Assembly (NCBI RefSeq): GCF_004010195.1
Contig: NC_057751.1
Span: 6,188,598 to 6,252,597 of the forward strand
Reading direction: 5' to 3'
Source: Chiloscyllium plagiosum
Lineage: Eukaryota
DNA: 64,000 nucleotides
The notes below the pieces were generated by a model, which saw nothing but the letters and a program-made list of their open reading frames with translations, was not told the origin of the DNA and searched no databases. Of this stretch, positions 451 to 63,672 are shown piece after piece; the first letter of the stretch is position 1, and each line of letters starts with the position of its first letter. Made by a program: the position numbers and the translations under genes.

Positions 451-469
451 AGATTTTCTTGTCAGTATA

Positions 470-602
470 GGAGAAAGTGAGGACTGCAGATGCTGGAGAT
501 CAGAGCTGAAAATGTGTTACTGGAAAAGCGCAGCAGGTCAGGCAGCATCCAAGGAACAGGAGAATCGACGTTTTGGGCATAAGCCCTTCTTCAGGAGGGC
601 TG
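470..602 (-). mobile_element. Short Penelope-like element terminal fragment with degenerate hammerhead core
   Basis: Same sequence as the end of the RT-bearing PLE at 14174; exact 15-bp TSD TTTCTTGTCAGTATA at 455-469 and 603-617. Confidence 0.85.
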
Positions 603-1169
603 TTTCTTGTCAGTATAACAATGTCAGGCATATGGCTGCCCTAAATTTTGGCATACGTCCTCAGATGTTAGTAAGGAGAACTTTTCAGGGTTGATAAAGT
701 TCACCATTGTAATTTCTTGTGCCTTGGTCTTTGCCAGGCAGTATCTTTGATTTTCTTTTTGTAATGAGTTCACTACTTTGCTGCAGGTCTCAAGTCACCT
801 GGGCCTGACCAGGGTAAGGTTGGCAGTTTTCTACCCTGAAAGGATATTTGTGAACGGATAGGATTTTGTAGCAATCAATGGTTTTTTTGGTCTCATTCGA
901 CTCATTTAATTCCAGAATGTTTTTTAAAATTCAGATTTAATAATCTGTCATGGCTGAACCTGGCTCTTCAGAGCATTACCTGCGCCACAGGATTAAGAGG
1001 CCAGCGATAATAACTCGACACTACTGCATACATATATTTGGCACCTGTCTGATTGACTATCAATTTAGCTGCAGCTACCTTAATGAAATGTTAGAGGTTA
1101 CTCTTCCTTAGTTTTCCTTCCATCCGAAGAAGGGCTACGTTTTTCCAAGCAGCTATTGTGGCACAGCGA

Positions 1170-4771: not shown

Positions 4772-4900
4772 CCTCTGGATGCTTTGGTTTCGTCCCACAG
4801 TCCAAAGATGTGCAAGTGAAGTGGATTGGCCATACAAAATTGCCTGTGGTGTCCCAGGAATGCACAGGTTAGTTTGGCAAAATAACAGGTATAGAATGTG

Positions 4901-5094
4901 GTAAAAACAATGACTGCAGATGCTGGAAACCAGATTCTGGATCAGTGGTGCTGGAAGAGCACAGCAATTCAGGCAGCATCCGAAAAGCTTCGAAATCGAC
5001 GTTTCGGGCAAAAGCCCATCATCAGGAATAAAGGTCGATTTCGAAGCTTTTCGGATGCTGCCTGAATTGCTGTGCTCTTCCAGCACCACTGATC
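4901..5094. mobile_element. Palindromic short PLE insert; hammerhead core in the loop
   Basis: Perfect 64-bp inverted repeat 4937-5000 / 5034-5097; 15-bp TSD CAGGT(A/G)TAGAATGTG at 4886-4900 and 5095-5109. Confidence 0.9.
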
Positions 5095-6907
5095 CAGGTG
5101 TAGAATGTGTCCGAGTGAGATGCTCTTTGGAGGGTCAAAGTGGACTTGACGAGCCAAATGGCCTGCTTCCACACTGTCAGGATTCCATGATTCCAATCTG
5201 ACAGTATCCCATTCTCACATTATTCCTGCTGTGGTACTCCAAGGATTTATCTTGGCTCTCTCCACGTACTTCCTGCCTTTAACGTGGTAACATCCAGAAA
5301 ACACAGGATTTTGTTTTGCATGTGCACAATGTAAACCCTCAACTCAATCTCATCACCTATCCACTCGACCTGTCTGCTGTGTAAAATTTAAGTTTCTTTT
5401 ACCAAAATTGAATTTTGAATGGGAAGCAGTTTCTCCAATTAAATCAGGTGGAAACTGAAACCATTTTCTGCACACCATCCACAGATGTAGATGTTTTGCT
5501 GTTGATTCTGACCCTCTCTTTGGCAAATATATGATCTTGAACCAAATTAAGTGCAACCTGAGCGTCCTATTTGGTTGCAAGCTGAGTTTTTGATTACATC
5601 TCCACATCCCAAAAATTGCATATTTGTACATCTGTGACATAGGATCATTCTTCCTTAGCTTCAGATTGTCTGCTGCTGAAATTCTCAGCCATATTTTAGT
5701 CTGGCCCAGCCAGTCACGCTCACATCGAGGAGTGAATTTTAAAAAATGAGAATTCCAACACATTTCTGATTTGCCTTCCATATTCTGCCTTTCATAAACT
5801 TACCCAAAACTTTGCATTTTTCCTGACTCTCACTTTATCCCATTCACCCATATCCCCTGTACAAGCTGACCTACATTGGCTTTCAGGTGAGCCACGCCCC
5901 AATTTTTAAACTTTAAAATTTGCTGTCAAACACTTTGGAAGTCAGGAGCACTGAATCCCCAATTTCCTCCAGCCCTGCAATCTTCATAAATGTCTGCACC
6001 TTTCCAGTTCTTTCTTGAGCATCCTGAATTTTAATAATTCTACTCCTGATGATCGTGCCTTTTGTGAAATGGGCTCTGAGCTCTGGATTCTCTCCATCAC
6101 CCTCTCCTTGTCTCAACCTCTTGCTCGTCCTTTGAGACTTTATACCAACTCAGTTCTTTGAAAAGGTTTTTAGTCTACTCCTCAAATTTCTCTTTGTATG
6201 GGCTTGATGTCAGAGTTCATCAGATTGTACTTCAATGAAGCCTGTGGAAATGTTTCTCTAAGTTAAAGGCTCCTGCATTTTGAAAGTGCAGTTAAAGGTT
6301 GGCTTGAAATTGATCTACATTCAATGGTTTTTTTTAAAGAATCACAGGAACCAACTCAGGATATTAGGACACACCATTGTATTGAGGGATGAATGCACAG
6401 GACCTAATCTAATCAGATGCAATGACAAGCTCTGGACTTGTCTGCTAATTCACATTCTTGTTTCATAGCTGCCTCCTTCCCCTTTCCTCTGGAACCTCTG
6501 ACAACTACCCACTCCGCCCAGCTTCCTCATTTCTGCTCTCGAGCATATCCTCAATTTTAATTGCTCCACCTTTTGTGACTTGCTTTCATTTGGTTAGACT
6601 TCCTTCCTAAATTTCCTTCCTAAATCCCTTGATCTCTCTGACTTACATACTTCAAAATGTGCCTTAATTTTTTTTTGTTCTGTAAGACCTCCTGTTGAAA
6701 TATATTCTTGCATAACTTCAGTTTGGTAACATTTCCATGAGGTGCCCTGGCATCTTGCACTATATTAAGGGCACTATATTAATGCAACTTGATGTTTCCT
6801 GTGGTCAAGGTTGACAATGAAGAAACCAAGTGAAGAGTAGGGAACTCTTCCAATTTATTGACCAGACATTTTCCTAATCCAGCACCACAAAACAAGCACA
6901 GGAACAG

Positions 6908-9008: not shown

Positions 9009-9355
9009 AATGTTCTGAAAAAACTCAGCAGGTCTGGCAGCATCTGTGGAGAGACGAACAGAGTTAATGTTTTGAGCCCAGTATTACTGTTTAGAAGAAC
9101 TGGAAGGGAGAGAAGTGATGGGTTTTCTACTGAAACAAAGAAGGGCGCTCAGAGGAGCAAGTTGAACAGATAATGTGGGTGCCCAGAGCAAAAGGGAAAG
9201 AGATTGCGAATGATAGTAGAGAAGTCTCAAAGAGGTGTAAGGCTTAATGGTAGAAAATACGTCAGGTCTGCTGAAAGCAAACCCATGCAAAGTGGAAGTG
9301 ATGAGGGAAAAAGGGGATTATCAAAATGAAGGGCAGAGTTCATGGTCTGAAGTTA
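9009..9355 (-). mobile_element. Old PLE terminal fragment
   Basis: CTCAGCAGGTCTGGCAGCATCTGTGGAGAG motif shared with 13705-13800 and other old PLE ends. Confidence 0.6.
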
Positions 9356-10364: not shown

Positions 10365-11539
10365 CAGGTCTCTCTCCTCAATGCCCCCTGACAGTTCAGG
10401 AAATACAGCAGGCAGCGAGGCAACTTCAGCGTGGGAAAGCGCCTGTCCCTGATGGTCTCCCGGGTGAGTTTTATAAGGAGTTTAGAGGGATTCTGTCAGG
10501 GCTGATTCTGGAAATGTACAATCACTCCTGTATGCATGAATGCCTACCACCATCTTTGAGAGAAGCTAATATTTCCCTCATTCTTAAGAACGGGAAGGAT
10601 CCTGAGGATTGTGCCTCACACAGGCCCGTCTCTCTTAAATTCAGATTTTAAGATTCTGACTAAGATTTTGGTGCTAAATTTGGAGGAGGTGTTGCCCTAT
10701 ATTGTCAAAGAAGACCAGACAGGTTTTATAAGGGGTCGCAGGTCCTCTAATAATATTAGAAGGTTGCTGAATATGGTCCAAGTATGTCAGCAATGATCAA
10801 TCCAGGGGTTGGTGATTTCCTTGGATGCAGAGAAAGAATTTGACCATGTAGAAAGGCCGTATCTCTTTTATGTCTTCGAGCGGTTTGGGCTGGGTGGAGT
10901 CTTTGCTCGGTGGGTGGAGGTTTTATATTGCCAACCTCTGGCCATGGTCATGACCAATGGGGTGAAGTCTGGAACTGCCCCCTCTCACCGTTGTTGTTTA
11001 CATTTGTGACAGAGCCACTGGCAGAGGCCATTCGTCAGAACATCCACATAACCGCTCCGGAAGTGGGATTGACGGTACACAAGTTTACACTATATGCGGA
11101 TGACATCCTTCTGTTTTTAGTGGACCCCATCTGATACAATGTATTAATATATTTGGGGCTATTTCAGGATATAAGATCAATTTTGCAGAGTCTGAGGTTC
11201 TGCCTTTGGGAGACCTGAAGGAAGTGCCAGAGGTTGAAAGTAGCCCTAGGTTCCCCTTTAAGTGGTCACGGGTGGGTTTCCAATACCTAGGTATTTTTAT
11301 TACCCCAATGTTTGATCAGTTATTTTGGATTAACTTTGTTCACCTGCTCGACAATATTAGGCGAGAAGTTCTTCCAATTTTGTGGTTGGGCCGAATAGCA
11401 TTTATTAAGATGCTTTATCCCATGCATATGCTCCCGATAATGTTTCCCAGGTCAATGTTGCGAAAACTTATGGTTTGGTTTAGTTCTTTCATTTGGTATC
11501 GTGGGCAGCCCCTCATCAAACATATTAAATTACAGTAGC

Positions 11540-11639
11540 TGAAAATGTGTTGCTGGAAAAGCGCAGCAGGTTACGCAGCATTCAAGGAACAGGAGAATCG
11601 ACGTTTCGGGCATAAGCCCTTCTTCAGGAATGAGGCCTG
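11540..11639 (-). mobile_element. Short PLE fragment inserted in L1
   Basis: 12-bp TSD AATTA(C/T)AGTAGC at 11528-11539 and 11640-11651. Confidence 0.85.
11595..11632 (-). ncRNA. Minimal type I hammerhead ribozyme motif
   Basis: Reverse strand: CTGAAGA-A-GGGC-TTAT-GCCC-GAAA-CG-TC; intact core, 4-bp stem II, weak stem I. Confidence 0.7.
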
Positions 11640-12669
11640 AATTATAGTAGCCTCAAGGATGGAGAGGAGTAGATTTCCCAGACATCAGGAGGTATCAATT
11701 GAGTCCCCTGCTGTCCTTTGTGTGTGATTGGGCAGATAACAATCCAGGCTCATTATGGCTGGATATCCATGCCTCCAAGGCAAGGTGCCCTCTTATTAAC
11801 CTGCTGTTCATGGATAAGATGGGGACAGTTATAGACCACTGCCGGAACCCATTGTGATTAATATGGTCAAGACATGGAGGGTAATGCGTCAGAGTGAGGG
11901 TTGTTTATCCAAGACTTTGCCACTCACCCCCATAGTTAGTATGATGGACTCAGGGTTCAAACTATGGGCAGCCAGAGGAGTTTCCAGTTTCGGAGACTTG
12001 TTTGAGGGGGAGGTTATGATGTCTTTCCAGCAATTGAGCCGCAAATACTGGCTGCCCAGCAGAGACCTTTTCCTTTTTTTTCAGGTTATGGATTTCATCC
12101 AGAAGAAGACTAACTTCTCACTAAGCCCTATAAGCCTGATACAGAGAGGTTGTTGCTATGTGCCACAAGCACCCTTTCAGTTAGTGCCTTCTATCGCCTA
12201 CTGGGTGTTAGGACCTGGCAGGATATTAACTGGTTATGGGAAGCAAGAGCTTGGAGTGGAGATCTCTTCTGAAATGTGGGATGACATATGGGAGAATGCA
12301 CAAAAGATCTCAATCTGTAATAGGACATACGCTATGCAGTTAAAAGTTCTGCACAGGGTCCATTCGGCACCAAACTGTCTGGTGAAGTTGAAAATAGGGG
12401 CATCTCCAGTGTGCCCCAAATGTAAAATAAATGTAGGTAATTTTACTCATTGCTTTTGGACATGCCACAGGCTCTGTGTTTATTGGAGCACTATGGCGGG
12501 AGAGGTAGTGAGGGTATTGAGGACCAAAATTAAAGGAGACCTAACCTGTCTCCTTCTAGTTCTACCGAATTTATCAACTTTAGACGGGAATGGGAAAAAA
12601 AAATTCAATATTCTTACTGACTGTACATGGAAGAATATTCAGATGAATTGGGTGTCTGAGAACCTTCCG

Positions 12670-12805
12670 AGCATAAGCCCTTCTTCAGGCTTATGCCCGA
12701 AACATCGATTCTCCTGCTCCTTGGCTGCTGCCTGACCTGCTGCGCTTTTCCAGCAACACATTTTTCAGCTCTGATCTCCAGCATCTGCAGTCCTCACTTT
12801 CTCCT
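12670..12805 (+). mobile_element. Short PLE fragment with a small inverted 5' piece
   Basis: GCATAAGCCCTTCTTCAGG followed by CTTATGCCCGAAAC...CACTTTCTCCT. Confidence 0.8.
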
Positions 12806-14173: not shown

Positions 14174-15577
14174 TGGAGAAAGTGAAGACTGCAGATGCTG
14201 GAGATCAGAGCTGAAAAATGTGTTGCTGGAAAAGCGCAGCAGGTCAGGCAGCATCCAAGGAGCAGGAGAATCGACGCTTCGGGCATAAGCCCTTCTTCAG
14301 GAATGAGGAAGGTGTGCCAAGCAGGCTAAGATAAAAGGTAGGGAGGAGGGCCTTAGGGGAGGGGCGTNNNNNNNNNNNNNNNNNNNNNNNNNNNNNNNNN
14401 NNNNNNNNNNNNNNNNNNNNNNNNNNNNNNNNNNNNNNNNNNNNNNNNNNNNNNNNNNNNNNNNNNNNNNNNNNNNNNNNNNNNNNNNNNNNNNNNNNNN
14501 NNNNNNNNNNNNNNNNNNNNNNNNNNNNNNNNNNNNNNNNNNNNNNNNNNNNNNNNNNNNNNNNNNNNNNNNNNNNNNNNNNNNNNNNNNNNNNNNNNNN
14601 NNNNNNNNNNNNNNNNNNNNNNNNNNNNNNNNNNNNNNNNNNNNNNNNNNNNNNNNNNNNNNNNNNNNNNNNNNNNNNNNNNNNNNNNNNNNNNNNNNNN
14701 NNNNNNNNNNNNNNNNNNNNNNNNNNNNNNNNNNNNNNNNNNNNNNNNNNNNNNNNNNNNNNNNNNNNNNNNNNNNNNNNNNNNNNNNNNNNNNNNNNNN
14801 NNNNNNNNNNNNNNNNNNNNNNNNNNNNNNNNNNNNNNNNNNNNNNNNNNNNNNNNNNNNNNNNNNNNNNNNNNNNNNNNNNNNNNNNNNNNNNNNNNNN
14901 NNNNNNNNNNNNNNNNNNNNNNNNNNNNNNNNNNNNNNNNNNNNNNNNNNNNNNNNNNNNNNNNNNNNNNNNNNNNNNNNNNNNNNNNNNNNNNNNNNNN
15001 NNNNNNNNNNNNNNNNNNNNNNNNNNNNNNNNNNNNNNNNNNNNNNNNNNNNNNNNNNNNNNNNNNNNNNNNNNNNNNNNNNNNNNNNNNNNNNNNNNNN
15101 NNNNNNNNNNNNNNNNNNNNNNNNNNNNNNNNNNNNNNNNNNNNNNNNNNNNNNNNNNNNNNNNNNNNNNNNNNNNNNNNNNNNNNNNNNNNNNNNNNNN
15201 NNNNNNNNNNNNNNNNNNNNNNNNNNNNNNNNNNNNNNNNNNNNNNNNNNNNNNNNNNNNNNNNNNNNNNNNCGAGGTAGCGCTGATACAGTCATCGATG
15301 TAGCGGAGGAAAAGGTGGGGGTGGTGCCAGTGTAGCTGCGGAAGATGGACTGTTCCACATATCCGACGAAGAGGCAAGCATAGCTGGGACCCATGCGGGT
15401 GCCCATGGCTACTCCTTTGGTTTGGAGGAAGTGGGAGGATTGGAAAGAGAAGTTGTTCAAAGTGAGGATCAGTTCAGTCAGTCGAAGGAGGGTGTCAGTG
15501 GAAGGGTATTGGTTGGGTTGGCAGGAAAGGAAGAAGCGGAGGGCTTTGAGGCCTTCGTGATGGGGGATGGAGGTGTC
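14174..15577 (-). mobile_element. Penelope-like element spanning the gap; RT motifs present
   Basis: TSIPHHEGL...LNNFSF...QTKGVAMGTRMGPSYACLF...FLRYIDD on the minus strand; PLE terminus at 14174-14367. Confidence 0.9.
14368..15272. other. Assembly gap (905 N)
   Basis: Run of N. Confidence 1.
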
Positions 15578-15809
15578 CCTATACATTACCTTTCAGCCTT
15601 ACCTATCTCGAGAGATGCAGGCTGGTCACTCTGTTGTATAAAGTTTGGTTTGTAAGATTCTTAACACTGCGTGGTATATTAAGCATGATCAGTATGATGA
15701 TGCCACATGGAATCAGGTGGGGGCAACAACTTTGAATTTCAAAGCTTCAAGACTGAACATGGAGGTTTCCCTTGCTATCTTAGTCATAATGTCTGTCATG
15801 TCAATGTAA

Positions 15810-15980
15810 AATTAAAAATCACACAACACCAGGTTATCGTCCAATAGGTTATTCCACAACCACCTGGTGAAGGAGCAGCACTCCGAAAGCGAGTGCTTCC
15901 AAATAAACCTGTTGGACTATAAACTGGTGTTGTGTGATTTTTAACTTTGTACACCCCAGTCCAATACTGGCACCTTCAAA
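15810..15980. mobile_element. Short palindromic PLE-type element, second family, degenerate hammerhead
   Basis: Arms AAAATCACACAACACCAG / CTGGTGTTGTGTGATTTT; core CTGGTGA-A-GGAG...CTCC-GAAAGCGA; 14-bp TSD TCATGTCAAT(G/T)TAA at 15796-15809 and 15981-15994. Confidence 0.75.
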
Positions 15981-16724
15981 TCATGTCAATTTAATTGTAT
16001 CTCATTGCTATCATACAATAAGTCTTCAATTACCAGTCGGTTTTCCTCTTCAACTTCCAACCAATGAGGCTCTGAAGATTCCTACCAGGAAAAAGGATGG
16101 TGGCAGCAGATCTACAGTTTAGATCTTCTTCTGTCATGTGCCTTGATGAGGATTCACCTCAGAACACAACCTGCAGGAAGTTTGTGGTGCCACAGAGCTG
16201 GTAATCCAGAATCTTAAGCCAATATTCTTGGGGCATGGGTTTATATCCCATCATGGCAGGCAGCAAAATTGTAATTCAGTAAAAATCTGGAATTAAACAC
16301 TCGCCTAAAGGTAGCCATTTAACCACTGGCAATTGTTGTTAAAATCAATTTGGTTCACCAATGTCCTTCAGGAATTGAAATTTGCTATCTTAATCTGGCA
16401 TGGCCAAGAGGTGACTGCAGATCCACAGCAATGTTGATCACTCTGAATTGCACTCTGTGCAATTTGGGAGGGGGATAAATACCAGCTTAGCCAGCAATGT
16501 GTATGAATGAAAAAGTATTCCTGTCATTGTTGACTGGTCTGGAATGTACAAAAGACACAGTGAAATAGTGATGCTTTTATGTTGCAAGTGCTAATGAAGA
16601 CTTGTGCTGCTGCCAAATATTTCGTGTTTCATAAGACTAATGTTGTGAAATGTTTGTCACTGGCTCTTCCAAACCATGGAGACAGCTTCAAGGCCCTTGT
16701 GGCAGCATGTAAAAATTAAGCCTC

Positions 16725-19274: not shown

Positions 19275-19376
19275 AATGTCAGGTATAAAGTATCTTTCAT
19301 CAATGAGGCACCATTTTGGGAAGATGGCAAAGGTACAATACACAATTTTTGAATGACCAGTTCAATGACAGAAATT

Positions 19377-20003: not shown

Positions 20004-20214
20004 AATTTTAGGTTATGAGAGATGCTCACAAAGAAGCAAGAGGCAAGGTTACCAAATGGTCTTTGAATACTGTGTTTTATATAATACTTTTAACTGTAAA
20101 CATCCAAAGCTATCAATGAAGACTATTCACATATAAAACAACTTAATGCCAGTTAGCCCACAAGAGTTTAATGAAATTTTAATTCAAGAGATAGGTTGCC
20201 AGTCCCCATCCAGA

Positions 20215-20320
20215 TGCCAGTCCCAATTCCTGATGAAGGGCATATGCCCGATATGCCGATTCTCCTGCTCCTTGGATGCTGCCTGACCTGCTGTGCTTTT
20301 CCAGCACCACACTCTCAACT
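20215..20320 (+). mobile_element. Short PLE fragment with degenerate hammerhead
   Basis: CTGATGA-A-GGGCATATGCCC-GATA; exact 16-bp TSD CCAGTCCCCATCCAGA at 20199-20214 and 20321-20336. Confidence 0.85.
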
Positions 20321-21724
20321 CCAGTCCCCATCCAGACCAATGAATGAGCCCAACTGCAGGTACACAGGATTTAGAGGCAAGATCTGGTCAATTGGCCCTT
20401 CAAGCCTGCTCTTCCATTCAATGGCATTGTAAATGATTGTGGTTTGAATTTAACGAGGAATATAAGATCATGATAAGGGAAAGAATAGGGCTCTTTTTTC
20501 CTGTTTCCAGTCTGGGGAACTGAACATACATTTAGCACCATAATGTCAACCCTGGCTGAAATCAGCTAAACCAGCCTGGAGCACGGATGAGGCCTGTCGT
20601 ATTTCTGCTGGACGTTGATCAGATTGGTTAGTGTTCCTGAGTTATTGAGTGGGTTATATATTGTGATAGTGACTGCATTACATTATTAGTTCATTCCTGG
20701 CAATACTGCTATGTGTTACAACCATTCTAGAAGCTCTTGCAGTGCACTGGGTAGTGTCCCTGTCTCTGAACCAAAAGCTTCAGGTTCCAGTCCCACCCCA
20801 GAGTTTGATGGCAAAGCAAGATGCTTTCATTGCACAACTAAACAGCTTGAATATCAATCTGCAAATTCTTCTAATATGCACAAGTGGCAGATGGGGAGAG
20901 AGGGAGCATCTGCCATCACTGTCCATAGCTTCACATATCACAACAATGTTGGGTGGGGGACACATGTTTGTTTGGACTACCAGTGTGAATTACATTGATG
21001 CCAACAACATGTAGTTCTCTTCCCATTTTGTATAATCTGGATTAGGAACTGCATTGTTGCCCTCCCGTTTGTGGAAATCACAGTGTTATGTGTCAAACAA
21101 GTCTTCAGGCAGACAGCCAAAGAGGTTGAAAAATAATCACCATCACATGCCGCAGTTGCTCCTTGTGGTGAAATACTGTGAATTTGCTTGCCCCAAGGCT
21201 TGAGACAACACAGCAAGGGTGCCAAAACTGTGTATCATAATATAGGGAGCTGTTGACACCTTCACTCTTTCCACAGAAATCTGAACAGACTATTCACCTA
21301 TGGTAAAGCTTGCCTTCAGCATCACACTGGTTAATTTCAGTGTGTTGTACAATGAACGGACGCTCCATTCCACCAAACCAAATCCATGGGCAACCAAAGT
21401 GAAAAATAACATTAACCCCACACTTGCAAATTGAGTGTTGCCTCATGTGAATTTCTGTTCAAACCATAATTTTATTTCATCACATGATCAGCTTGGAATT
21501 GTGCCAGTACTTTGCTCGTATTTGTTTTTGAATCACACTAATTTTGTTACATTCTTGTCTTGTGGGATGTTCCTGGTCCTAAATAGTTGCTGTATATGCT
21601 TATAGAACAACAGTGCTCTCCAAAGTAATTATTTTAACATGCAACTCTGTTATAAAACATTCTGTAAATGTAAGTCTTCTTCTTCACATTATCTGGGGCT
21701 TTGGCAAAGGAAAGCTTTCAGCCT

Positions 21725-25107: not shown

Positions 25108-25124
25108 GATTGGTGTGATGTAGT

Positions 25125-25306
25125 GTGGTGCTGGAAAAGCACAGCCGGTCAGGCAGCATCTGAGGAGCAGGAGAGTCAACATTTCGAGCATAAGCTCTTC
25201 ATCAGGAATATTGCCTGATGCTCGGATGCTGTCTGGCCGGCTGTGCTTTTCCAGCACCACATTTTTTTTACTCTAATCTCCAGCATCTTCAGTCCTCACT
25301 TTCTCC
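25125..25306. mobile_element. Palindromic short PLE insert
   Basis: Inverted arms GTGGTGCTGGAAAAGCACAGCCGG / CCGGCTGTGCTTTTCCAGCACCAC; exact 15-bp TSD TTGGTGTGATGTAGT at 25110-25124 and 25307-25321. Confidence 0.88.
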
Positions 25307-27337
25307 TTGGTGTGATGTAGTTCAGGAGAAAGTTTCTACATTTTTTCAGGGAATAATTTCCAGAACATTAATGTCAGTTCACTCTTGTCGTTTAGATATG
25401 AAGGGAAGCTTCAGGTAGCTGGGATAGACAAACTTGCAATGATTTACATTCTGCCAGAGGAAGAGAGGAGGAAAATGTACATGAGTTGTACCACTGAAAA
25501 TCTCTCACTGTTCCCAGTGATTTTCTGAATTCTGACAACAAAATATGTAAGTGGGTTGAGATGAAGAAAAAAGCAATGTGCTATTGAGATTTGTTCTGTC
25601 AGTTTCCATTGTTGGGACAGCTGGCAATTCAGTCATTGTACACAACAGATAATTTTGTATTGTCGTCCCATTCTCTAGTAAATTACATCTAAAACATTTT
25701 CACTTCAAAAATGTAAGCATTCTAATTTTTTTCACGTCATTATCTACATTTTCTCCTGTTGTCCCTTTCTGTTCTCAAGGTTTATTTGCATTTACTGACA
25801 TCTATCTTTTTCTTCCAATTAACCTACGTTCTCTTTCTGATACTTATTTCCTGCAAAATAAGTTGAAGCCCTCCATGTAAACATCTCCAGGCTTCCACTG
25901 TCCACATTGGGACCCAAAGAAATCTTGCTCAAATTGGATATCCGCTTGCTGAAAATCAGCTGTCAAGGCCAGTTTCCTCGAACATGCCAATCCCTGGACC
26001 CAGAAGACTGATTTGCAACTCAGTCAAACTTTGATTCATTTCCTTACAAGGAGAAAAGAAAAGACAGCTAAACAGCTAGCATACTCCTGGTGGAGTCCCA
26101 ACACACAGCGGCCTCTTGGCGAGTAAAATCTCTGAAAACCAAATCAAGCTGGCTGAAAAGAAAGAAATTCTATTCATTTTGCACCTCACACACTTCCCAT
26201 GAAGTATTAGTGCTTCTTAGCTCATGACTACCTTTTGAAGTGTAGTCACTCTTATTATATTTTAAATATTTACAGCACAGAAACAGCTTACGGCTCAGCT
26301 GATGTTTATGTCCACATAAGCCATTTTCACCCATCTTCACTGAACTCTATTAAAGTAGCATCACATTCCTTTCTCCCCCAAGCACCTATCTAGTTGCCAT
26401 TGAAAGCAGCTGGGCATTTTGCCTCATTTTTCCTCTGAGAGTGACTTCCATAATGCAACATTCCCTGTGTAAACTGGTTCTTCCTAATTCCGCATTGGAT
26501 TTAATCGTGACCATCTTTCATTTGTGACCTTTCCATTCTGATCTTGTCCACAAATGGACTGTGTTGCACACAAATCACCTGTTTCACTTGACAACATTGG
26601 CCTGCACACAACAGAAAATTAACCAATGTCACAAAAGGAGATGAGAAGCCACAGTGCATTTGGGCAATAGCTGGATAGATGTGGTATAACTCAAACTAAA
26701 ATCAACTTTCTTTGATCTTTTATAATTTATTTCTTCAATGTGAACAGTTTTGTTAAAGCGTTAGTATGATGGCCTGGCATGGATTGATAGGAGGGAGAAA
26801 TGACAGTTGCTGTGATTACTTCTCTACATTGCTTATTGGCTGATTCCTTTTCTTGTATGTCAGATGCAGAAGAATCATAATTAAATGTATAAGCACAGGA
26901 AGAACAAAGAATTTTCAGTGTTACCTGATGCTCAGTGCAAGCTTGGCATCTGCTTATCAGAATACTTGGCAACAAATAAAATGAGAGTCAACACAGTCAC
27001 CTTCAACTAGATTTGCTTTTCAAAGAGTTGGAAGTGACGTTTAAAATCTGCTCAGTCTGGATTTTTGGTTGTGGTCCTTGCAAATTAATTAAGGCAGACA
27101 AAAAGGAGATTAGCACAAAACATATACTATCTCCTGGGCAAAGAACTGTGTAATTTTTACAATGTGCAAGAATGTTCGCAAATGTCCTTGCTAATTAAAT
27201 ATATAATAAACAAACTGATAACAATCCTACTTGCAATGCTTGCAGAAAAAGCTTATACAAGACAAATGAGATTCAAACTGGAGCTAATATTGGAGACGCC
27301 ATCTTATTAACAGAAACAATATTGGAATTCCTAAAGA

Positions 27338-29769: not shown

Positions 29770-29782
29770 TTTCTTTTAGGCA

Positions 29783-30126
29783 AAGTTAAAAATCACACAA
29801 CACCAGGTTATAGTCCAACAGGTTTAATTGGAAGTGCTAGCTTTTGGAGCGCTCCTCCTTCATCAGGTGGTTGTTCCACCTAATGAAGGAGCAGCGCTCA
29901 GAAAGGCCTAACCAAAATCCTGTACAGCTGCAACATCACTTCACGACTCTTGAATTCAATCCCTCTGCTTTTGGAGCGCTCCTCCTTCATCAGGTGGTTG
30001 TTCCACCTAATGAAGGAGCAGCGCTCAGAAAGCTAGTGCTTCCATTTAAACCTGTTGGACTCTAACCTTGTGATGTGTGATTTTTAACTTTGTATACCCC
30101 AGTCCAACACTGGCATCTCCATGTCA
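29783..30126. mobile_element. Palindromic PLE-type element (second family) with internal duplication and CR1 insert
   Basis: Same arms as 15810-15980; 13-bp TSD TTTCTTTTA(G/A)GCA at 29770-29782 and 30127-30139. Confidence 0.85.
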
Positions 30127-30997
30127 TTTCTTTTAAGCATAATGTCTTCAGTATGTTCAACGGATTTCTATTTCACTGGAAGTTTACTTGGCTTCAACTG
30201 GTGAAATACTTCACTAATTTCCTGCTTGATGCCCTTTTACAGCAGCTGCATGACTTCAACAATTGAATTATTGGGTTTAATCTACTGTTTAAATGGCGCA
30301 ATGAGCCACTAAACTCACAAATACTCCAGTAAACCTAATGAACTCACCTCATTGTTACTCTCTCTGTGATCGCTACACATTTCTCTTTCATTTTAGTTCT
30401 CATGAATAGTTTATCTGCAAATCCCCCATGAAACCTTTACAAACATTTGGTACTTAGGGACTTGCAGTAAATCTCATTGACCAGTTTGTGCATCTCCCCA
30501 AAGTATTGTTCAGTTCACAGTTCTATTTATTATTGCATTGATTGGAACCTGATTTGCTCAAATTGACTGCTTTCTTTGTTAATACATTTCTTTTAGCAAT
30601 TTGCAATGGATTTTTTGGTTGTGGAGAAATTCCAAATATTCATTCCATTAATTGTTGTAGTAACTTGATAAGTGATGCAAAGCATACTGGGGAGAAATAT
30701 ATTTTTCTCAGAATATAATTGGTCAGAGTTAGTTTTTAATTCAAAAGCATGAAAAAGAAAAAATAATTGGGACGCTTGTTGCTTTGAATGGGTTCTCACA
30801 CAAAACTATTCATGAAAGCTTACTGCTTCACTTAAGGTGTTTTGCACATTGGCTGGAGGAAATGAAATAATTTGTAACTAAATCTTTTGGCCATCCCTCC
30901 TCATTGTACCTTCTTTGAGTCAGCACTCATATATTCCCTGTCACCCCAACAAGGTATGAAGATAAATCTTTACTTCTGTAAAAAGTTTCAATCGCTT

Positions 30998-32221: not shown

Positions 32222-34243
32222 GGATGTAGGTTTGCTCGCTGAGCTGGAAGGTTCATTTCCAGATGTTTCGTTACCCTACTAGATAATATTTTCAGTAGGC
32301 CTCAGGTGAAGCAATGCTGAAAATTCCTGCTTTCTATTTATATGTTTAGGTTTCTTTGGGTTGGTGATGTTATTTTCTGTGGTGAAGTCACTTCCTGTTC
32401 CTTTTCTCAGAGGATGGTAGTTGGGGTCTAACTCGATGTGTTTGTTGATAGAGTTCCGGTTGGAATGCCATGCTTCTAGGAATTCTCATGCACGTCTTTT
32501 TTTGGCATGTCCTCGGATGGATGTGTTGTCCCAGTCAAAGTGGCGTCCTTCCTCATCCGTCTGTGAGGATACGTGTGAGAGAGGGTCATGTCTTTTTGTG
32601 GCGAGTTGGTATTCATGTATCCTGGTGGCTAGTTTTCTGCCTGTTTGTGCAATGTAGTGTTTGTTACAGTCCTTGCACAGTATTTTGTAAATGACATTAG
32701 TTTTGCTCAATGTCTGTATAGGGTCTTTTAAGTTCATTAGCTGCTGTTTTCATGTGTAGGGTTTATGGGCTACCATGATGCAAAGGGGTCTGAGTAGTCT
32801 GGCAGTCATTTTTGAGATGTTTTTGATGTAGGGGAGAGTGGCTAGGATTTCTGGACATGTTTTGTCTGCTTGTTTGGGTTTGTTGCTGAGAAATCGGCGG
32901 ACTGTGTTCATTCGGTACCCATTCTTTTTGAATATATGGTATAGGCGATTTTTCTCTGCTCTGCGTAGTTCCTCTGTGCTGCAGTGTGTGTGTTGGCTCA
33001 TTGAAATAATGTTCTGATGCAGCTTCGATCGTGGGTGTTTCATTGGTTCCGTTGGATCTCCGGTATCACGGTTCTCAGCGGAGCCAGTAATGCAGAGACT
33101 TGAACAAACAGCTCTGCCAACCATCCAACCCAAACTTTGGGTCCACTACGTGGATGACACCTTTGTCATCACTGAACAAATTAGAGGAAACATTCAAGAC
33201 CATCAATAATACCCTTACTGGCATAAAATTCACTAAAGAGGAGGAAAACAAAAACAAATTGCCATTCCTAGATGTTGCAGTAGAGCGAACAGACAATGGG
33301 GAACTTCAGACCAGCGTCCAGAGGAAAACAACCCATACAGACCAAATATTGAGCTACAGAAGCAATCATCCCAACGCCCACGAACGAAGCTGCATCAGAA
33401 CATTATTTCAATGAGCCAACACACTGCAGCACAGAGGAACTATGCAGAGTAGATGATAATCGCCTATACCGTGTATTCAAAAAGAATGGGTACCCAATTA
33501 ACACAGTCCGCCGATTTCTCAGCAACAAATCCAAGCAAGCAGACAAAACGCATCCAGAAACCCTAGCCACTCTCCCATACATCAAAGACATCTCGGAAAT
33601 GACTGCCAGACTACTCAGACCCCTTTGTATCATGGTCATCCACAAACCCACCAACACATTAAAACAGCAGCTAAAGAACTTGAAAGACCCTATACAGACA
33701 TTGAGCAAAACTAATGTCATTTACAAAATATCGTGCAAGGACTGTAACAAACACTACATTGGACAAACAGGCAGAAAACTAGCCACCAGGATACATGAAT
33801 ACCAACTCGCCACAAAAAGACATGACCCTCTCTCACACATATCCTCACAGACGGATAAGGAAGGACAACACTTTGACTGGGACAACACATCCATCCTCGG
33901 CCAAACAAAGACATGCATGAGAATTCCTAGAAGCATGGCATTCCAACCGGAACTCTATCAACAAACACATCGAGTTAGACCCCATCTAACACCCCCTGAG
34001 AAAAGGAACAGGAAGTGACTTCACCACAGGAAATAACATCACCACAGGTAATGACTTCACCAACCCAAAGAAACCTAAACATATAAATAGAAAGCAGGAA
34101 TTTTCAGCAGTGCTTTGCCTGAGGCCCACTGAAGATGTTACCTAATAGGGTAACAAAACATCTGGAAATGAACCTTCCAGTTCAGCGAGCAAACCTACAT
34201 CCAAAACCTCAACCTGAGCTACAAATCTTCTCAAAACTCGCTA
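32222..34243 (+). mobile_element. Penelope-like element (RT C-half plus GIY-YIG) with a long inverted 5' copy
   Basis: GSP...W.HYVDDTF, LPFLDV, NVIYKISC.DC...YIGQTGR; arms 32222-33039 and 33373-34202 are inverted; TSD ATTTA(T)GAACACA at 32209-32221 and 34244-34255. Confidence 0.93.
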
Positions 34244-37200
34244 ATTTAGAACACAAATATGTTTCTGTAGTTAGGTACAGGCTGCACCACTTAGGTGCCC
34301 CCCAAAGCAACATTTTACATTCCCCTCCGATTAGTTGTTGTGTGAAGGGCAGCTCATTTCTCTGGGACATGGCTGAGCTTTAGAAATAGAACCGGCATCA
34401 AGAATCCCAGGAAGTCCCAACAATAGCCTTACGTCTGTGATTTCTAAAACCACAACAGGGTACCATTGATGCATGGAGAGTAGCTTGAGGGGAACCGAAT
34501 CTCTAGTGTACAACCATCATATTACTACGCTTTCAATTACCTGCCCCCGTGCTCCAACGTCTGTGAGATTAACCAACTGCAAGAACTGTCACTCGACATA
34601 GACTTATTGGACTCTGATTTGTGTAAATTATTATCCATATCTCTTTTTTTAAAATGAAATATTTGTGATTGTTCTTCTTGTTTTATTTATTTCATCTTCT
34701 TTCTTGCAGATATTTTCAATCAGCCTGTTCAGACATGTTTTGACACAACTCTGGAGCAGGTAGGACTTGAGACCAACCCTTTTTCTCTTTCTTCTTAGTA
34801 CACTTGTGTGTGTCTGTTTGTTGAGAAAATTATTGTCTGAGCTTGAGTGCTCGAATAAAGCTCCTTTTGTTTTAACCCTCATGAGATTTTGTTGTGGACC
34901 ATTTAAAAATTGCATTTAGTTTGGTATGAACAAACACTAGAGCCTATTTCAAATGGGCAAAAAAAAAACTCTTCTTACAGATGGAAGAGAAAAATTAAAA
35001 AATACACCTCTCCCTTTTATCACTGACATGCCTCACTAACATTGAGGGATATACTTCTTAAAAAGTCATTAGCAGGACAAATTGTCCTTCTTGAATCGTA
35101 GGAACCAGGGCAAACATGGACAAGTAGGCACATCTCAAACACTGAAACCAAACATTTTATTGCCTCAGTCAGAAGCGATAACCCTGAGGCAATTGCCAGT
35201 TTCTGTTCACTTTTTATTTAATTTCCCATATTTACCATTATATCTCATTATTGTGGTTCTGTCTTGCAGCTAATCCTGATGTTTTGATCAAGCTAGATCA
35301 TGGTAAAGTTTGTACTTTGGGTGGACATTAGCACAATTGTAGAAGGTGCAGTTGCGTTTAATGTTTCTTCTCAAACTCACTTGTATATTTGTGAACATAA
35401 AATCTTGCATAAAGCACTATAGTTCGAATCTGGTCATGGTTTTTTTTAATCTTTGCATTTGGAAAAATAATTATGTTCTCGAATGAGTGGTAACCTGATG
35501 CAGTTATATTCGTACAACTGAAATGAGTGTCTGATCTGAAAATAAAATATTGTAAGTAATGTTTCCAGTCCAGTGACCTCTTTTCAGAAGATTTTAGTCT
35601 GATTTGTTTAGGCTATCAACAGATTGTGAAGAAATGGTCACTCTGCTCATAAGAACATTTAATTTGTTGTAGGGCTGTATTCTTTTGGAGGGTGCTTCAA
35701 AGCTACCACTTTAAAAAAAAATCATTCTTACTCTCCACAAATATTGAAAGTCTTCTCCCACTTCAGATGCTTCTACTCGAGGTTCAATGAATTCTATAGA
35801 GACTGTGCTCTTCGTTGGGCTAAAAACTAGCTGTCAATATATTGAACCCTGCTGTGTTATTTCAGCATTCCCTTCCCTTACACTTGCCTCAACTTAAAGC
35901 CAGTGACACTGTTGCTGAATTTAATCAGCTTTGTTAGTTGAACCAGATGAGTATGCTGTCAAAATGCAAATCACTGGACATACATGGTTTGTGGTAATAA
36001 GAATGTTCTCATAGATTATGTGTTTGTTTGGACATGTGTTCTCCTTCAGAGAAATTGACTGATGAATGTCTGCTCAGTGCAGCATTATCCAATTCTCAGC
36101 TGTTATATCTATTACGTTTTTCAGTTATTTAATTCTCTCTGCACTTAACAGTGGCTGAAATGATGTCTCAGGATCGACAAGTCAAATGCACTATGTCCTT
36201 TGAATTGTAGCAAGTTTCTGAGACAATGCAGAACCTTTGTTTATAATGTCTTGTTTACAATGATGGATAGTTAGTCTTGACTTCAACACACCCCAGTCCT
36301 CTTTCAATACATTTCAATTCAGTTCTTAAAGTAAGGATGATGAGGCTCTTACATTATTTTTCTGGTTTTCTTAAACCAAGTGCTGGTTGGATTTCTATGA
36401 TCTGAGGCAACCTGCTGCTGAATTTTCATTTCTGCTGATGCTACAACTCATATTATCAGTGGGATCTAATATCCTTTTATTAATGCTGTAAAATTCACAT
36501 AAACTGCCTTTGTGCACGAGATTAGCATAACCATTAGCCTCTACAAGCAAATGGGTTAATCACAAGGTTTAAAATAAAAGGGTAAATGGCTGTTAAAATA
36601 AATGAGTCAACAGCTGATTAAAATGAATGGGTTAAAACAGTGCACAAAGGAATTGTTTCATGAACATATTATCTGGCGTGCTGGAGAAAATTAAACCTTG
36701 AAATGTCATTTAAACCACATTAAAATTGATTAATACGTGGTATTAAACAGTTCAGTTATCCATCAGCAGATGCTGTATGTTTATGCAAACACAGTATTCA
36801 GGGTGTTCCAAGGCAATAATGCACGAAAACATTTTCTCCAAGCTCTTTCCCCCTCTTCCACAGCCCCTGTGCATTTGCATTACTGCTTGGAGCATGCAAC
36901 AGATTGTGGTGACTTTATATGGTACACAGGTATTTAGTGATTTATTACTGTCTTATATTTTCCTGCTGGAGGGTACCCAGTAGACAGTGATAAATGTCAG
37001 CCTCCTGCCATTGAATAGTGATTTGAGAGTTAATGATAAGGGAGATTTTTTTTCCCTACTCTGATGGGAAAGAGTTTTTATCCTTTATAATGAAAGGGGG
37101 TACTTGGCTCACTAAATGACTTCATGTAACAAACTCTCTGCTCCTTAGACACAACCAAACAGCCAGACAGAAGAATAACACATTGTCCCTGAATTATTCA

Positions 37201-53479: not shown

Positions 53480-54428
53480 TGTGATGATGCTGCCCCTTTA
53501 AGGTTATGTTGTCCTTGGTTTTTTTCAAGAGGGTTTGTCAAGCAATTGGTGTTGAAATGGCTGTCAGACACTGCCGAAATCAACAATCAAAGGAGGCCTT
53601 TAGGTGTATTTTTGTAACACAGTTATACAATCAAAGGGGAGTGGCCAGTTCCCCCAGTTCAGTTTTTTTCTAGTTTGGTTTACTTTTAGCAGGGAGTTAG
53701 AAGCTACTTGTAGCAGAGAAGCAGCTACAGTAAAAAGAGGCTCCATGATTCAACAGAGGTCTTGCTTGAACTTTCTTTCTGAAATATCTCCTGCCTGTAA
53801 GAAACTGGACACCCGGACCAACCAACCCAAGCACCCCGTGGCTCAACACTTCAACTCCCCCTCCCACTCCACCAAGGACATGCAGGTCCTTGGACTCCTC
53901 CATCGCCAGACCAGAGCAACACGACGGTTGGAGGAAGAGCGCCTCATCTTCCGCCTAGGAACCCTCCAACCACAAGGGATGAACTCGGATTTCTCCAGTT
54001 TCCTCATTTCCCCTCCCCTTCCTTGGATGCTGCCTGACCTGCTGTGCTTTTCCAGCAACACATTTTCAGCTCTGATCTCCAGCATCTGCAGTCCTCACTT
54101 TCTCCTCCGTGTAAAAAACTGTGTTTGAATTTACCATTTGACAAGGGGTGTGTTTATGGGATGTTACAGGGATTGGAACCATGTTGTTAACTTGCGATTT
54201 CAAGTTGGTTGGGTTTTCAAATATTTAAGTTATTCTAAATTCTGTTTTCTTTGTTTGTGTTTCAACCGTAGTGTGTGAATAAATTCTGTTTGGCTTGAAA
54301 CTGAGTGGTTTGATCAGCTGCATCACACCTGGCATATCCACCTTACATCTGCCTTCAAAAGAATAAAAGTTAGGGTCCGAATTACTTTTTTAAAATATGT
54401 TGAGGGGGGTCTGGCCTGGTCCATAACA
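53480..54428 (+). mobile_element. Solo LTR (Gmr1-like family) containing a PLE insert
   Basis: TG...CA; (A)TCTA duplicated at 53475-53479 and 54429-54433. Confidence 0.88.
53808..54106 (+). mobile_element. PLE fragment (GIY-YIG C-terminus plus terminus)
   Basis: PVAQHFNSPSH...RRLEEERLIFRLGTLQPQGMN; about 20-bp imperfect flanking duplication. Confidence 0.88.
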
Positions 54429-61556: not shown

Positions 61557-61726
61557 TAAATTCTATCAATAGTCTGTGCAGAGTCAGCAAAATCACAACT
61601 GGGATCAAGCATATGGCATTGCCATAATTGACTTCAATATTTTGCGTATACAGATGCAAACACAGATAGTGTTCATGCATTTACAAATGAATTTAAATGG
61701 TGTTGTAGGTCTTAATTATAAGCAGG

Positions 61727-61960
61727 GAGAAAGAGAGGACTGCAGATGCTGGAGATCAGAGCTGAAAATGTGTTGCTGGAAAAGCGCAGCAGGTCAGGCA
61801 GCATCCAAGGAGCAGGAGAATCAACGTTTCGGGCATGAGCCCTTCTTCAGGAAATGAAAGGTATGATTTCCTGAAGAAGGGTTCATGCCCGAAACGTCGA
61901 TTCTCCTGCTCCTTGGATGCTGCCTGACCTGCTGCGCTTTTCCAGCAACACATTTTCAGC
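61727..61960. mobile_element. Palindromic short PLE insert with two back-to-back hammerhead cores
   Basis: 98-bp arms 61758-61855 / 61866-61963 with 2 mismatches; 17-bp TSD TCTTAATTATAAGCAGG at 61710-61726 and 61961-61977. Confidence 0.92.
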
Positions 61961-62770
61961 TCTTAATTATAAGCAGGCAACTTCCCTGGCTCTTAACCTT
62001 TACTCAAGTGTGGCATTTCATTCCGGTGGAATTTAACGACTATTAAATATTTTAAAGCATGTAATTCCTTACATTTTTCTTGCTGTGCCTTTTACCTCCC
62101 TCTGTCCTGGGATTGCTACATTGTTCCAGTGAAGCTGAAGGTCAGCAATTGCATCTTTTGTTCAGACTATTTTTAACCGATCAGAATCTACAAGTTCAAC
62201 AATTTCAGATCATGACCTCGACTATATTTTTAAAGAACAGATCCTGGCAATGTTTCAATTGCTTGCATCCGACCATTATCTTGTTAGTATGGAAACAAAA
62301 ATACTGCGGATGCTGGAAATCTGAAACAAACACAGAATGCTGAACTGCGCATCTGATGCTCTGGGAATACCACAACATCCACGGAGAGACAAGCAGTTTC
62401 GAATCCAGTATGACATATCTTCAGAACTGTCATTATATTTTCACATTGGTATTTGTGGAACCTATATGTGTACCAAATGGAACTACTTTTTCTTTCTTTC
62501 ATAGAAACATAGGAACAAGAGTAGGCCATTCAGCCTGTTTTGCCATTTATTGAGATCATGGCTCTCTGTCTCCGAATTCCATATGGCCGCTTTTTGGTGC
62601 ATATCCCTTTCATTTTAAGTGAAAGTGTTCTGTCTCAGATTTGAAGAAAGCCTCATGCTGTTCCCACAATCCTATCTTTCATTCTTATACCATCAGCTGT
62701 TTTGCTTTTCTATCACTGCCGCCTTCCAATGTGTCACAGCACTTTTCTTTATTTCCTTCAGAGTGCACAC

Positions 62771-63672
62771 TGATATGGACCAGGCCAGACCCCCTCAAAA
62801 TATTTTAATAAGGTAGCTTGGACCCTAACGTTTTCTTATTTTAAAGGCAGTTGAAACTTTATTGCTGGAACAGCACAGCAGGTCAGGCAGCATCCAGGGA
62901 ACAGGAGATTCGACGTTTCGGGCACAGGCCCTTCTTCAGGAATGAGCAGAGAGTGTTCAGCAGGAGAAGATAAAAGGTAGGGAGGAGGGACTTGGAGGAG
63001 GGGCGTTGGAAATGTGATAGGTGGAAAGAGGTCAAGGTGAGGGTGATAGGTCGGAGTAGGATGGAGGCGGAGAGGTCAAGAAGAAGACTGCAGGTCAGGA
63101 AGGCGGTGCCGGGCTGGAGGGATCCGGCTGAGACAAGGTGGGGGGAGGGGGGATGAAGAAACTGGTGAAGTCCAAGTTCAAGGCAGATGAGGAGTGGATA
63201 TTCTTTGCTGCTGGTCAAACCACTCGGCTTTAAGCAAAACAGAAATTATTTAAGCACGACAGTTGAAACATGAGCAAAAGCAAACAGAATTTAGAATAGC
63301 TTAACTATTTGAAAACTCAACTGACTTGATACTGCAACTTAACTAAGGAGCTGTTCCAATTCCCGCACCATTCCATAAACCCTTGGCAAAAAGGTAAATT
63401 CAAACATGGCTTCTTACAGGCAGGAGAGATTTCAGAGAGAAAAGTCAGCCATGGATTATCTGCTGAAGCTTGGAACCTTTTTTCAGCTTCTGACTACCTG
63501 CTCCCAGCAGCTTCTCTCTTCAACTAAAACAAACTAGAAAAAAGCTGAACTGGGAGGACTGGCCACTCCCCAGCCGTTGTTAAAGTAAACAATTCGGCAC
63601 CTCTGCCTTTACGACGTCTCCTGGAAACAACCAAGGACAGTATAACCTTTTTAAAGTGACAGCATTGTCACA
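62771..63672 (-). mobile_element. Solo LTR (Gmr1-like family) containing a PLE insert at about 62855-63179
   Basis: TG...CA; TSD ACAC at 62767-62770 and 63673-63676. Confidence 0.87.
62908..62943 (-). ncRNA. Minimal type I hammerhead ribozyme motif, best-preserved copy
   Basis: Reverse strand: ATTC-CTGAAGA-A-GGGC-CTGT-GCCC-GAAA-CG-TC-GAAT; 4-bp stems I and II both fully paired. Confidence 0.78.

What the first reader, a model, noticed from the sequence alone, without database searches (positions are those of the whole stretch)
455..617. Population of tiny ribozyme-bearing Penelope-derived inserts with long TSDs
Seen: at least eight 100-350 bp inserts (470, 4901, 11540, 15810, 20215, 25125, 29783, 61727), each flanked by a 12-17 bp target duplication and each containing or ending near a CTGANGA...GAAA core, intact or decayed. 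They fall into at least two unrelated sequence families. Established: PLE terminal repeats carry minimal hammerheads. Inference: the recurrent stop points near the ribozyme suggest these move as short non-autonomous, retrozyme-like units or that the ribozyme sets where copying ends, rather than random truncation.
Basis: partly seen in the sequence, partly recalled or inferred. Interest (0 to 1): 0.7.

Follow-up and report, generated by a model that had tools for sequence, protein, structure and literature searches.

The report
Penelope stubs stopping before the hammerhead
These tiny insertions are real, short end-pieces of Penelope-type jumping genes in a shark-like genome, and in the commonest family most stop about four bases in front of a small ribozyme motif rather than at its cut site, likely because the copying enzyme runs off the start of the element's own RNA, so they are probably dead by-products and not a new self-copying element.

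Summary
Observation confirmed: 8 of 8 inserts (100-344 bp) have 12-17 bp target duplications and a minimal hammerhead, intact in 4. They are end-pieces of Penelope-like elements (PLEs). Family A is linked to Neptune-type RT and endonuclease remnants; family B is unrelated and has no ORF here. The 3' ends sit at two fixed sites (the known PLE tail). In family A the 5' ends are not random: depth falls 3.3-6.6-fold over 18 bases, and the top listed 5' end is the A of TCATTC, 4 nt before the core and 31 nt from the cut site. So cleavage does not set the end. No hammerhead-bearing tandem arrays were found, and short and long copies are 94-96% alike, so these are not retrozymes. Best reading (0.6): reverse transcriptase starts about 100-130 nt inside the transcript and runs off its start. 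My advance test on a third family did not show the predicted pile-up. This scan reached the same reading before on other DNA of this and other genomes. New variant of a known kind; interest 0.4.

The parts
455..617 (-). Family A stub with 15-bp TSD (455-469, 603-617): element 470-596, tail present, 5' end 2 nt before the core, 6-nt snap-back filler 597-602; hammerhead 567-594 with one core change
4886..5109 (.). Family A2 (79% like A1) two-armed insert; tailed arm on minus strand with intact hammerhead 4998-5025, 5' end about 8 nt before the core; tail-less inverted arm starting about 3 nt before the cut site
11528..11651 (-). Family A tail-less stub, 12-bp TSD, intact hammerhead 11600-11627, 5' end 8 nt before the core, snap-back filler
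12661..12805 (.).
14175..15585 (-). Long family A copy: tail end 14175, hammerhead 14273-14300, cut site 14273/14272, TCATTC 14306-14301 (modal stub end 14304), TTTTATC 14336-14330, assembly gap 14368-15272, PLE RT remnant 15273-15574
15796..15994 (.). Family B two-armed insert, 14-bp TSD; short tail-less minus arm 15810-15850; tailed plus arm with decayed hammerhead 15864-15892, starting up to 13 nt before the core
20199..20336 (+). Family A (subfamily A3) tail-less stub, 16-bp TSD, filler copied from the target 20215-20225, 5' end 4 nt before a decayed core at 20230
25110..25321 (.). Family A3 two-armed insert, 15-bp TSD; tail-less minus arm with intact hammerhead 25178-25205 (compensated stem II pair), 5' end 4 nt before the core; tailed plus arm without hammerhead
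29770..30139 (.). Family B two-armed insert, 13-bp TSD; hammerheads 29838-29866 (-) and 30007-30035 (+); arms start 8 and 4 nt before the core; the fold-back junction is duplicated (66 bp) around 63 bp of LINE DNA
53796..54121 (+). Family A copy with endonuclease C-terminus (53814-54002), an internal deletion that removes the hammerhead, tailed 3' end, about 12-bp TSD, inserted in another repeat
61710..61977 (.). Family A two-armed insert, 17-bp exact TSD; two intact hammerheads 61823-61850 (-) and 61871-61898 (+); one arm tailed, one tail-less; arms start about 5 and up to 16 nt before the core
62841..63190 (-). Family A (subfamily A1') tail-less copy running about 240 nt upstream of its intact hammerhead 62912-62939; 14-bp TSD with 2 mismatches
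32222..34244 (.). Family C two-armed PLE with RT and GIY-YIG remnants, used as a comparison; hammerheads 32262-32295 (-) and 34129-34162 (+); TATAAATA at 34082; 3' ends at 34203 and 34243-34245

Best explanation
The inserts are short end-pieces of protein-coding Penelope-like retrotransposons with two fixed 3' ends and, in family A, a 5' end piled 4 nt before the hammerhead core; they are likely made when the element's reverse transcriptase starts about 100 or 130 nt inside the front repeat of its RNA and runs off the RNA's start, which would make them dead-end by-products. Steps. (1) Shown: 3' ends fall at two sites 32-41 nt apart (tail). (2) From the literature on one lizard PLE, transferred by inference: these are internal RT start sites, and both strands of the cut target are extended. 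(3) Shown: family A 5' ends peak at the A of TCATTC, and the copies span the cut site. (4) Inferred: that A is a polymerase II start (initiator, AT-rich box at -32), so the stub is the whole stretch between RT start and RNA start. (5) Inferred: the free cDNA end is joined by host end-joining, which trims a few bases and adds snap-back or target-copied filler; when both strands are extended, one from each start site, the two cDNAs are joined into a hairpin insert. (6) Inferred: stubs lack the RNA downstream of the tail that the lizard enzyme needs to load, so they do not copy on.
For: 3' ends: 1188 and 1129 contigs end at 14175 in X1 and X4, with a second group at 14215-14224 that is partly subfamily clipping; family C 392/363 at 34203 and 1000/990 at 34243-45. 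5' ends: 273 and 279 contigs (of 10,632 and 9,618 partly laid, an undercount) end at 14304 with mixed flanks (agreement 0.31); also listed in X15 (43) and X21 (145). Depth step from 14287-95 to the plateau 14314-40: 3.4, 3.3, 6.6 and 14.7-fold in X1, X4, X21, X15, then flat in X1, X4 and X21 (ratios 0.91-1.04). Window: 7 of 10 family A insertions end 1-16 nt before the core, P about 1e-4 under constant-hazard truncation after allowing for 20 bins (bin chosen after seeing the data). The stop recurs in A1, A2 and A3. TCATTC fits the initiator consensus YYANWYY (consensus recalled) with A as +1; TTTTATC lies at -32 to -26 with the same spacing in the 62849 copy while 9 of 21 spacer letters differ (counted by eye). 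The loose-end consensus at 14304 begins with C, that is G in RNA sense, in 3 of 3 contig sets, as a copied cap would give (no frequency given). 6 of 6 two-armed inserts with both 3' ends have exactly one tailed arm. PMC11167929: RT starts inside the pLTR-ORF junction at two sites bounding the tail, both strands are extended, product length follows the template's 5' end, uncut RNA is the main substrate, and RNA to +172 is needed. Promoters and start sites lie in pLTRs (PMC2377424, PMC3846280, PMC8557442).
Against: No transcript start was mapped: table 6 was empty, and the strand ratio in X21 does not change at 14304 (1.3-1.6 on both sides). My advance prediction (note) that family C 5' ends would pile about 30 nt after its TATAAATA (34106-34114) was not met: no such end is listed, and the 2-fold step at 34116-34133 is about the size of 21 clipped reads of a variant that runs on upstream. 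Position -4 is also the 5' edge of hammerhead stem I, so the site does not separate start site from fold. Three window copies reach -8 to -16, beyond a single start. The leading C is absent in X21 and could come from snap-back synthesis. TTTTATC is a poor TATA match. Contig depth swings several-fold along the repeat for assembly reasons, and subfamily divergence upstream may inflate the step. Family B (2 inserts) was not tested genome-wide. In Drosophila Penelope the start is about 120 nt upstream of the hammerhead (46 nt plus a 75-nt intron), so the layout is not universal.
Confidence: 0.6

Rival explanations
1. The hammerhead fold, or the PLE protein bound to it, fixes the end without cutting: a 5'-to-3' exonuclease trims longer RNA back to the foot of stem I, or RT lets go as the new cDNA folds back at stem I.
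For: The peak coincides with the 5' edge of stem I; the best-supported inverted joint links 14304 to 14270, the two sides of stem I (7 and 2 contigs); the lizard hammerhead folds only with protein; family B arms start 4, 8 and up to 13 nt before the core.
Against: Stem I has only 2-4 pairs and the hammerhead is not the predicted monomer fold in any of 6 folds; RT pauses are expected at the 3' foot of a hairpin, not after it (general knowledge); family C has a longer stem II yet shows no listed pile-up; three window copies pass through.
Confidence: 0.15
2. The stubs are a non-autonomous SINE-like or retrozyme-like family, transcribed from short master copies and moved by the PLE protein.
For: They outnumber long copies (70-85% of depth is lost at the step); each has its own TSD; pLTR-derived retrozymes and non-autonomous PLEs exist.
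Against: No tandem array holds a hammerhead (0 of 9 TRF rows); stubs are 94-96% like the long RT-bearing copy and the stop recurs in three subfamilies; each junction has its own filler; copies are not cut-site-to-cut-site units; the region beyond the tail is missing.
Confidence: 0.1
3. The stubs are solo pLTRs left by recombination between the two repeats of a full-length copy.
For: A solo repeat would keep the TSD and both fixed ends; solo pLTRs are reported in Adineta.
Against: Repeats of 100-130 bp recombine poorly (general knowledge); two-armed inserts and copy-specific fillers point to direct insertion; the Adineta solos put down to recombination lacked TSDs. It also still needs a cause for the fixed front edge.
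Confidence: 0.07
4. Ordinary random 5' truncation; the link to the ribozyme is only geometry and detection bias.
For: The core lies 65-100 nt from the fixed 3' ends; PLEs are heavily truncated; family C declines gradually; second arms end at scattered places.
Against: Sharp step then plateau in 4 of 4 runs and a single-base peak with mixed flanks in family A.
Confidence: 0.05
5. Ribozyme cleavage makes the template's 5' end, so copying stops at the cut.
For: One second arm (4901) starts 3 nt from the cut site, and the commonest inverted joint lies 2-3 nt from it.
Against: A cut template would exclude the core, yet the stubs hold it; no loose end is listed at 14272-14273 (only the best-supported 6 per run are shown); the lizard enzyme mainly uses uncut RNA.
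Confidence: 0.03

Closest known systems
Insertion units of endonuclease-bearing PLEs (Neptune, Penelope/Poseidon): 5' truncation, inverted pLTR, one-sided 30-40 bp tail, TSD (PMC8557442, PMC3846280; passages read)
   Same: Two fixed 3' ends, inverted arm, tail on one arm only, long variable TSD, hammerhead near the 3' end, RT and GIY-YIG relatives.
   Different: The passages describe 5' truncation as heavy or variable; a single-base 5' peak just before the hammerhead is not described in them.
Minimal hammerheads in PLE repeats (PMC4209133; parts 1-2 of 4 read)
   Same: Same descriptor, extra base before stem II, palindromic stem III remnant, mostly single dispersed motifs 'probably related to truncated PLEs', and pairs on opposite strands 100-700 bp apart.
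   Different: That paper did not map insert ends; stem II here is 4-5 bp in families A and B, not 7-8.
PAc Poseidon element of Anolis in vitro (PMC11167929; parts 1-2 of 4, passages, two supplement PDFs that gave almost no text)
   Same: RT starts about 85-92 nt after the cut site (here 65 and 98 nt); both strands extended; uncut RNA copied; AT-rich targets.
   Different: Different clade and host; the RNA start was not mapped there, and short run-off inserts are not discussed in what I read. Figure S2 could not be seen and may show genomic 5' ends.
Animal non-LTR retrozymes (PMC7229834, passages; bioRxiv 10.64898/2026.07.22.740005, parts 1-3 of 5)
   Same: Short, non-coding, type I hammerhead, related to pLTRs, TSDs longer than 4 bp.
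   Different: Retrozymes are head-to-tail repeats of 150-450 bp with canonical hammerheads that give circular RNA; these are single or head-to-head stubs with minimal motifs, collinear with the PLE end.
Minus-strand strong-stop DNA of LTR retroelements (recalled, no call)
   Same: Short cDNA from an internal start to the capped RNA end.
   Different: Here priming would be from the cut target, with no tRNA primer; strand transfer is not shown.

Membership tests
Endonuclease-bearing PLE (family A) | PLE-type RT linked to the repeat | tested here: met
   RT remnant in the 14175 copy is 85% like shark proteins and 50-65% like proteins with RT plus GIY-YIG; the link runs across a 905-base assembly gap
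Endonuclease-bearing PLE (family A) | C-terminal GIY-YIG endonuclease just upstream of the 3' repeat | tested here: met
   53814-54002 matches the endonuclease end of P0030 (E 3e-8) and P0041; Pfam alone found nothing on the 72-aa piece
Endonuclease-bearing PLE (families A, B, C) | Minimal hammerhead in the terminal repeat | tested here: met
   self-cleavage not testable here
Endonuclease-bearing PLE (families A, B, C) | 30-40 bp tail on one end, inverted arm, variable TSD | tested here: met
   6 of 6 two-armed inserts have one tail
Endonuclease-bearing PLE (family B) | RT-endonuclease ORF linked to the repeat | not testable with these tools
   No long copy in the window, no genome, no match in viral or metagenome contigs
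Neptune/Nematis clade (family A) | Cysteine motif in the RT-endonuclease linker | tested here: inconclusive
   Seen by eye in relatives P0030, P0031, P0041, P0070 (feature); the linker is not in the window and no tree was built
Non-LTR retrozyme | Head-to-tail repeats with a hammerhead in each unit | tested here: not met
   0 of 9 tandem arrays in the window hold one; none among listed joints (list cut); arrays elsewhere in the genome not excluded
Non-LTR retrozyme | Canonical type I hammerhead | tested here: not met
   Minimal motifs only, stem I 2-4 pairs; no Rfam hammerhead match
Non-LTR retrozyme | Monomeric linear and circular RNA | not testable with these tools
   Only poly(A) single-cell reads and RNA contigs were available
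SINE-like non-autonomous family | Own lineage from short master copies | tested here: inconclusive
   Stubs 94-96% like a long copy and the stop recurs in three subfamilies, but only 10 insertions were compared

The most novel reading that the evidence does not exclude
PLEs have a strong-stop step. On a single-unit transcript the enzyme can load only at the front repeat, because the back repeat lacks the RNA beyond the tail. It then has about 100-130 nt to copy before the cap. Long copies arise only if it transfers to the back repeat or if hammerhead cutting and ligation have closed the RNA into a circle; the stubs are the majority outcome on capped, uncut RNA. This would explain how the pseudo-LTR is rebuilt and give the PLE hammerhead a job.
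Probability: 0.22. Interest if true: 0.72.

Novelty: new variant of a known kind. Interest (0 to 1): 0.4.

Why it matters
How PLEs copy themselves, how their pseudo-LTRs are rebuilt ('no obvious mechanism', PMC2377424) and what their hammerheads do ('still unclear', PMC8557442) are open questions. Thousands of stubs with fixed ends are a natural record of the reaction: they name one base to test by cap mapping and one template to test in the existing in vitro system. They also caution against annotating such repeats as SINEs or retrozymes. The elements and motifs themselves are known.

Tried and rejected
No genome was available, so ends could not be counted in an assembly. Rfam gave only chance miRNA and U6 matches. 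Family A and B patterns found nothing in viral contigs and family B nothing in metagenome contigs; a 17-mer of family A gave 119 loci, 0 of which matched over 30 bases or more. No RNA holder was listed for the stretch, and X22 laid 0 reads on family C; neither is evidence on expression. The family C test did not meet its prediction. A splice acceptor at -4 was rejected: there is no AG, and flanks are mixed, not a shared exon. A lariat branch at -4 was considered: no suitable acceptor 18-40 nt downstream. A cDNA hairpin at the modal end is no more stable than shuffles (z 0.30). Literature searches: 'penelope, hammerhead, retrotransposon' (36 papers, 25 listed), 'penelope, pLTR, transcription start, truncated', 'penelope, promoter, initiator, drosophila virilis' (30), 'penelope-like, pLTR, hammerhead' (31), 'penelope, shark, neptune, non-autonomous' (0), 'penelope, strong-stop, retrotranspos' (1, off topic by title and abstract start), 'penelope, chiloscyllium, transposable element' (49), 'penelope-like, solo pLTR' (54). 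None of the passages read describes the 5' peak. The library lacks most subscription papers, including the 2016-17 paper on PLE hammerhead dimers; bioRxiv supplements and Figure S2 of PMC11167929 were not seen and may bear on this.

Full report
Setting. The window is repeat-rich vertebrate DNA with LINE and PLE remnants. The best relatives of its PLE RT fragment are named from sharks and rays. No genome was held, so genome-wide evidence comes from public runs laid on two 270-base stretches.

Observation. All 8 of 8 cited inserts are present, 100-344 bp long, with 12-17 bp duplications, four exact and four with one mismatch; 0 of 296 random zone pairs scored as well. CTGANGA by itself is at chance, but a minimal-hammerhead descriptor gives 7 strict hits against 0 in 20 of 20 shuffles. 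Four inserts hold an intact motif, two a motif with one core change, two a decayed one. Families A and B are unrelated in sequence. The same fold appears with different stem II sequences in families A, B, C and a lone fourth motif at 53348.

What they are. Family A has 10 insertions in the window. One runs, across an assembly gap, into an RT fragment whose relatives carry RT and GIY-YIG domains; another holds the endonuclease end. Four A1 stub arms with full overlap are 94-96% like the long copy over 79 letters. The 3' ends fall at two sites: 1188 and 1129 contigs end at 14175, a second group near 14215-14224 (partly subfamily clipping), and family C shows the same with a 41-nt gap. This is the known PLE tail, shown in a lizard element to lie between two internal RT start sites (PMC11167929). 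In 6 of 6 two-armed inserts that keep both 3' ends, exactly one arm has the tail (12661 left out: one arm has lost its 3' end); this is also a known feature. Family B is filed as a PLE end on this architecture alone.

The 5' ends. In the window 7 of 10 family A insertions stop 1-16 nt before the core (P about 1e-4 under constant-hazard truncation, bin chosen afterwards). In the runs, depth drops 3.4, 3.3, 6.6 and 14.7-fold across 14296-14313 and then stays level or rises slightly. The top listed 5' loose end with mixed flanks is 14304 in X1, X4 and X15, and it is also listed in X21. That is 4 nt before C3 and 31 nt from the cut site. The tool lists only six loose ends per run and warns that contig depth is no copy number, so the shape is firm and the fractions are rough.

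Why there. Base 14304 is the A of TCATTC, which fits the initiator consensus (recalled). An AT-rich box lies at -32 with the same spacing in a subfamily whose spacer differs at 9 of 21 letters. The loose-end consensus starts with C, a G in RNA sense, in 3 of 3 contig sets but not in the raw RNA reads. PLE promoters lie in the pLTR. In vitro, the lizard enzyme starts in the pLTR-ORF junction, extends both strands, gives products whose length follows the template's 5' end, uses uncut RNA, and needs RNA beyond its start sites. Run-off from the front repeat therefore predicts a stub of exactly this extent that cannot be copied again. Junction fillers fit host end-joining: 6-bp snap-backs at 470 and 11540 and target-copied filler at 20215.

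Against. No RNA start was mapped. Base -4 is also the edge of stem I, and the best-supported inverted joint joins the two sides of stem I. I set a test in advance: family C has a clear TATAAATA, so its 5' ends should pile near 34106-34114. They did not: no 5' pile-up is listed at either predicted place, and a 2-fold step in 374 raw reads matches 21 clipped variant reads. The reference has several private changes there, so the test is weak, but it gives no support, and it shows the pattern need not hold in every family. It also counts somewhat against the fold as a general stop. Family B ends (4, 8 and up to 13 nt before the core, plus one short arm) come from two inserts only.

Retrozymes. The defining tandem units and canonical hammerhead are not met; circular RNA was not testable. 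A 2026 preprint derives retrozymes from pLTRs, so such stubs could be raw material, but nothing here shows that they move.

Earlier notes. My run-off reading was written down before I looked. The look-ups show that other agents reached the same reading on other pieces of this genome and on other genomes, some reporting an extra G. These are unchecked AI notes, not support. I took the words 'stub' and 'strong-stop' from them.

Verdict. Real, abundant, a known kind of element. The fixed 5' end is not described in the passages I read and makes an open mechanism testable. New variant of a known kind; interest 0.4.

Noticed in passing
window 29907-29969: 63 bp inside the family B insert are 96.8% like the LINE copy 2 kb away (27848-27910) but 71-82% like three other LINE copies in the window; the piece sits between two identical 66-bp copies of the fold-back junction, suggesting templated capture of nearby DNA during repair.
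   Followed up: partly
window 53348-53377 (-), 53133-53240 (+): A lone intact minimal hammerhead of a fourth family, weakly like family A downstream (16 bases, E 0.008), next to a faint RT remnant on the other strand (E 0.004): probably an old PLE with an inverted repeat.
   Followed up: partly
window 14247-14226 (-): Downstream of the hammerhead, family A has a branch-point-like CTGAC followed by a pyrimidine run and CAG, the best conserved part of the alignment; it looks like a 3' splice site and could be exonised by host genes.
   Followed up: no
window 32222-34244: A 2-kb two-armed family C PLE (arms 90% alike) with RT and GIY-YIG remnants, a TATAAATA box 47 nt before the hammerhead and an 18-bp tandem repeat; 22 RNA reads carry an A-run at 34236.
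   Followed up: partly
window 53480-54428, 62771-63672, 18683-19279, 50537-51140, 58199-59174: An unnamed 500-600 bp repeat family with several copies; two family A insertions (53808, 62855) landed inside copies of it.
   Followed up: no
window 14175-14270 in runs X1 and X4: Joints from 14254-14270 back to 14175 or 14215 suggest short head-to-tail partial tandems of the 3' end that lack the hammerhead core (table 5c; joint kind not given).
   Followed up: no
window 14175-14367 and 33990-34259 in run X21: Reads are strand-biased towards the same element orientation in both families (1.3-2.7-fold in A, up to about 7-fold in C); direction depends on the library and was not resolved.
   Followed up: no
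window 9241-12735: A long decayed LINE-like ORF region on the plus strand that hosts the 11540 and 12661 insertions (no Pfam match for the last piece).
   Followed up: no
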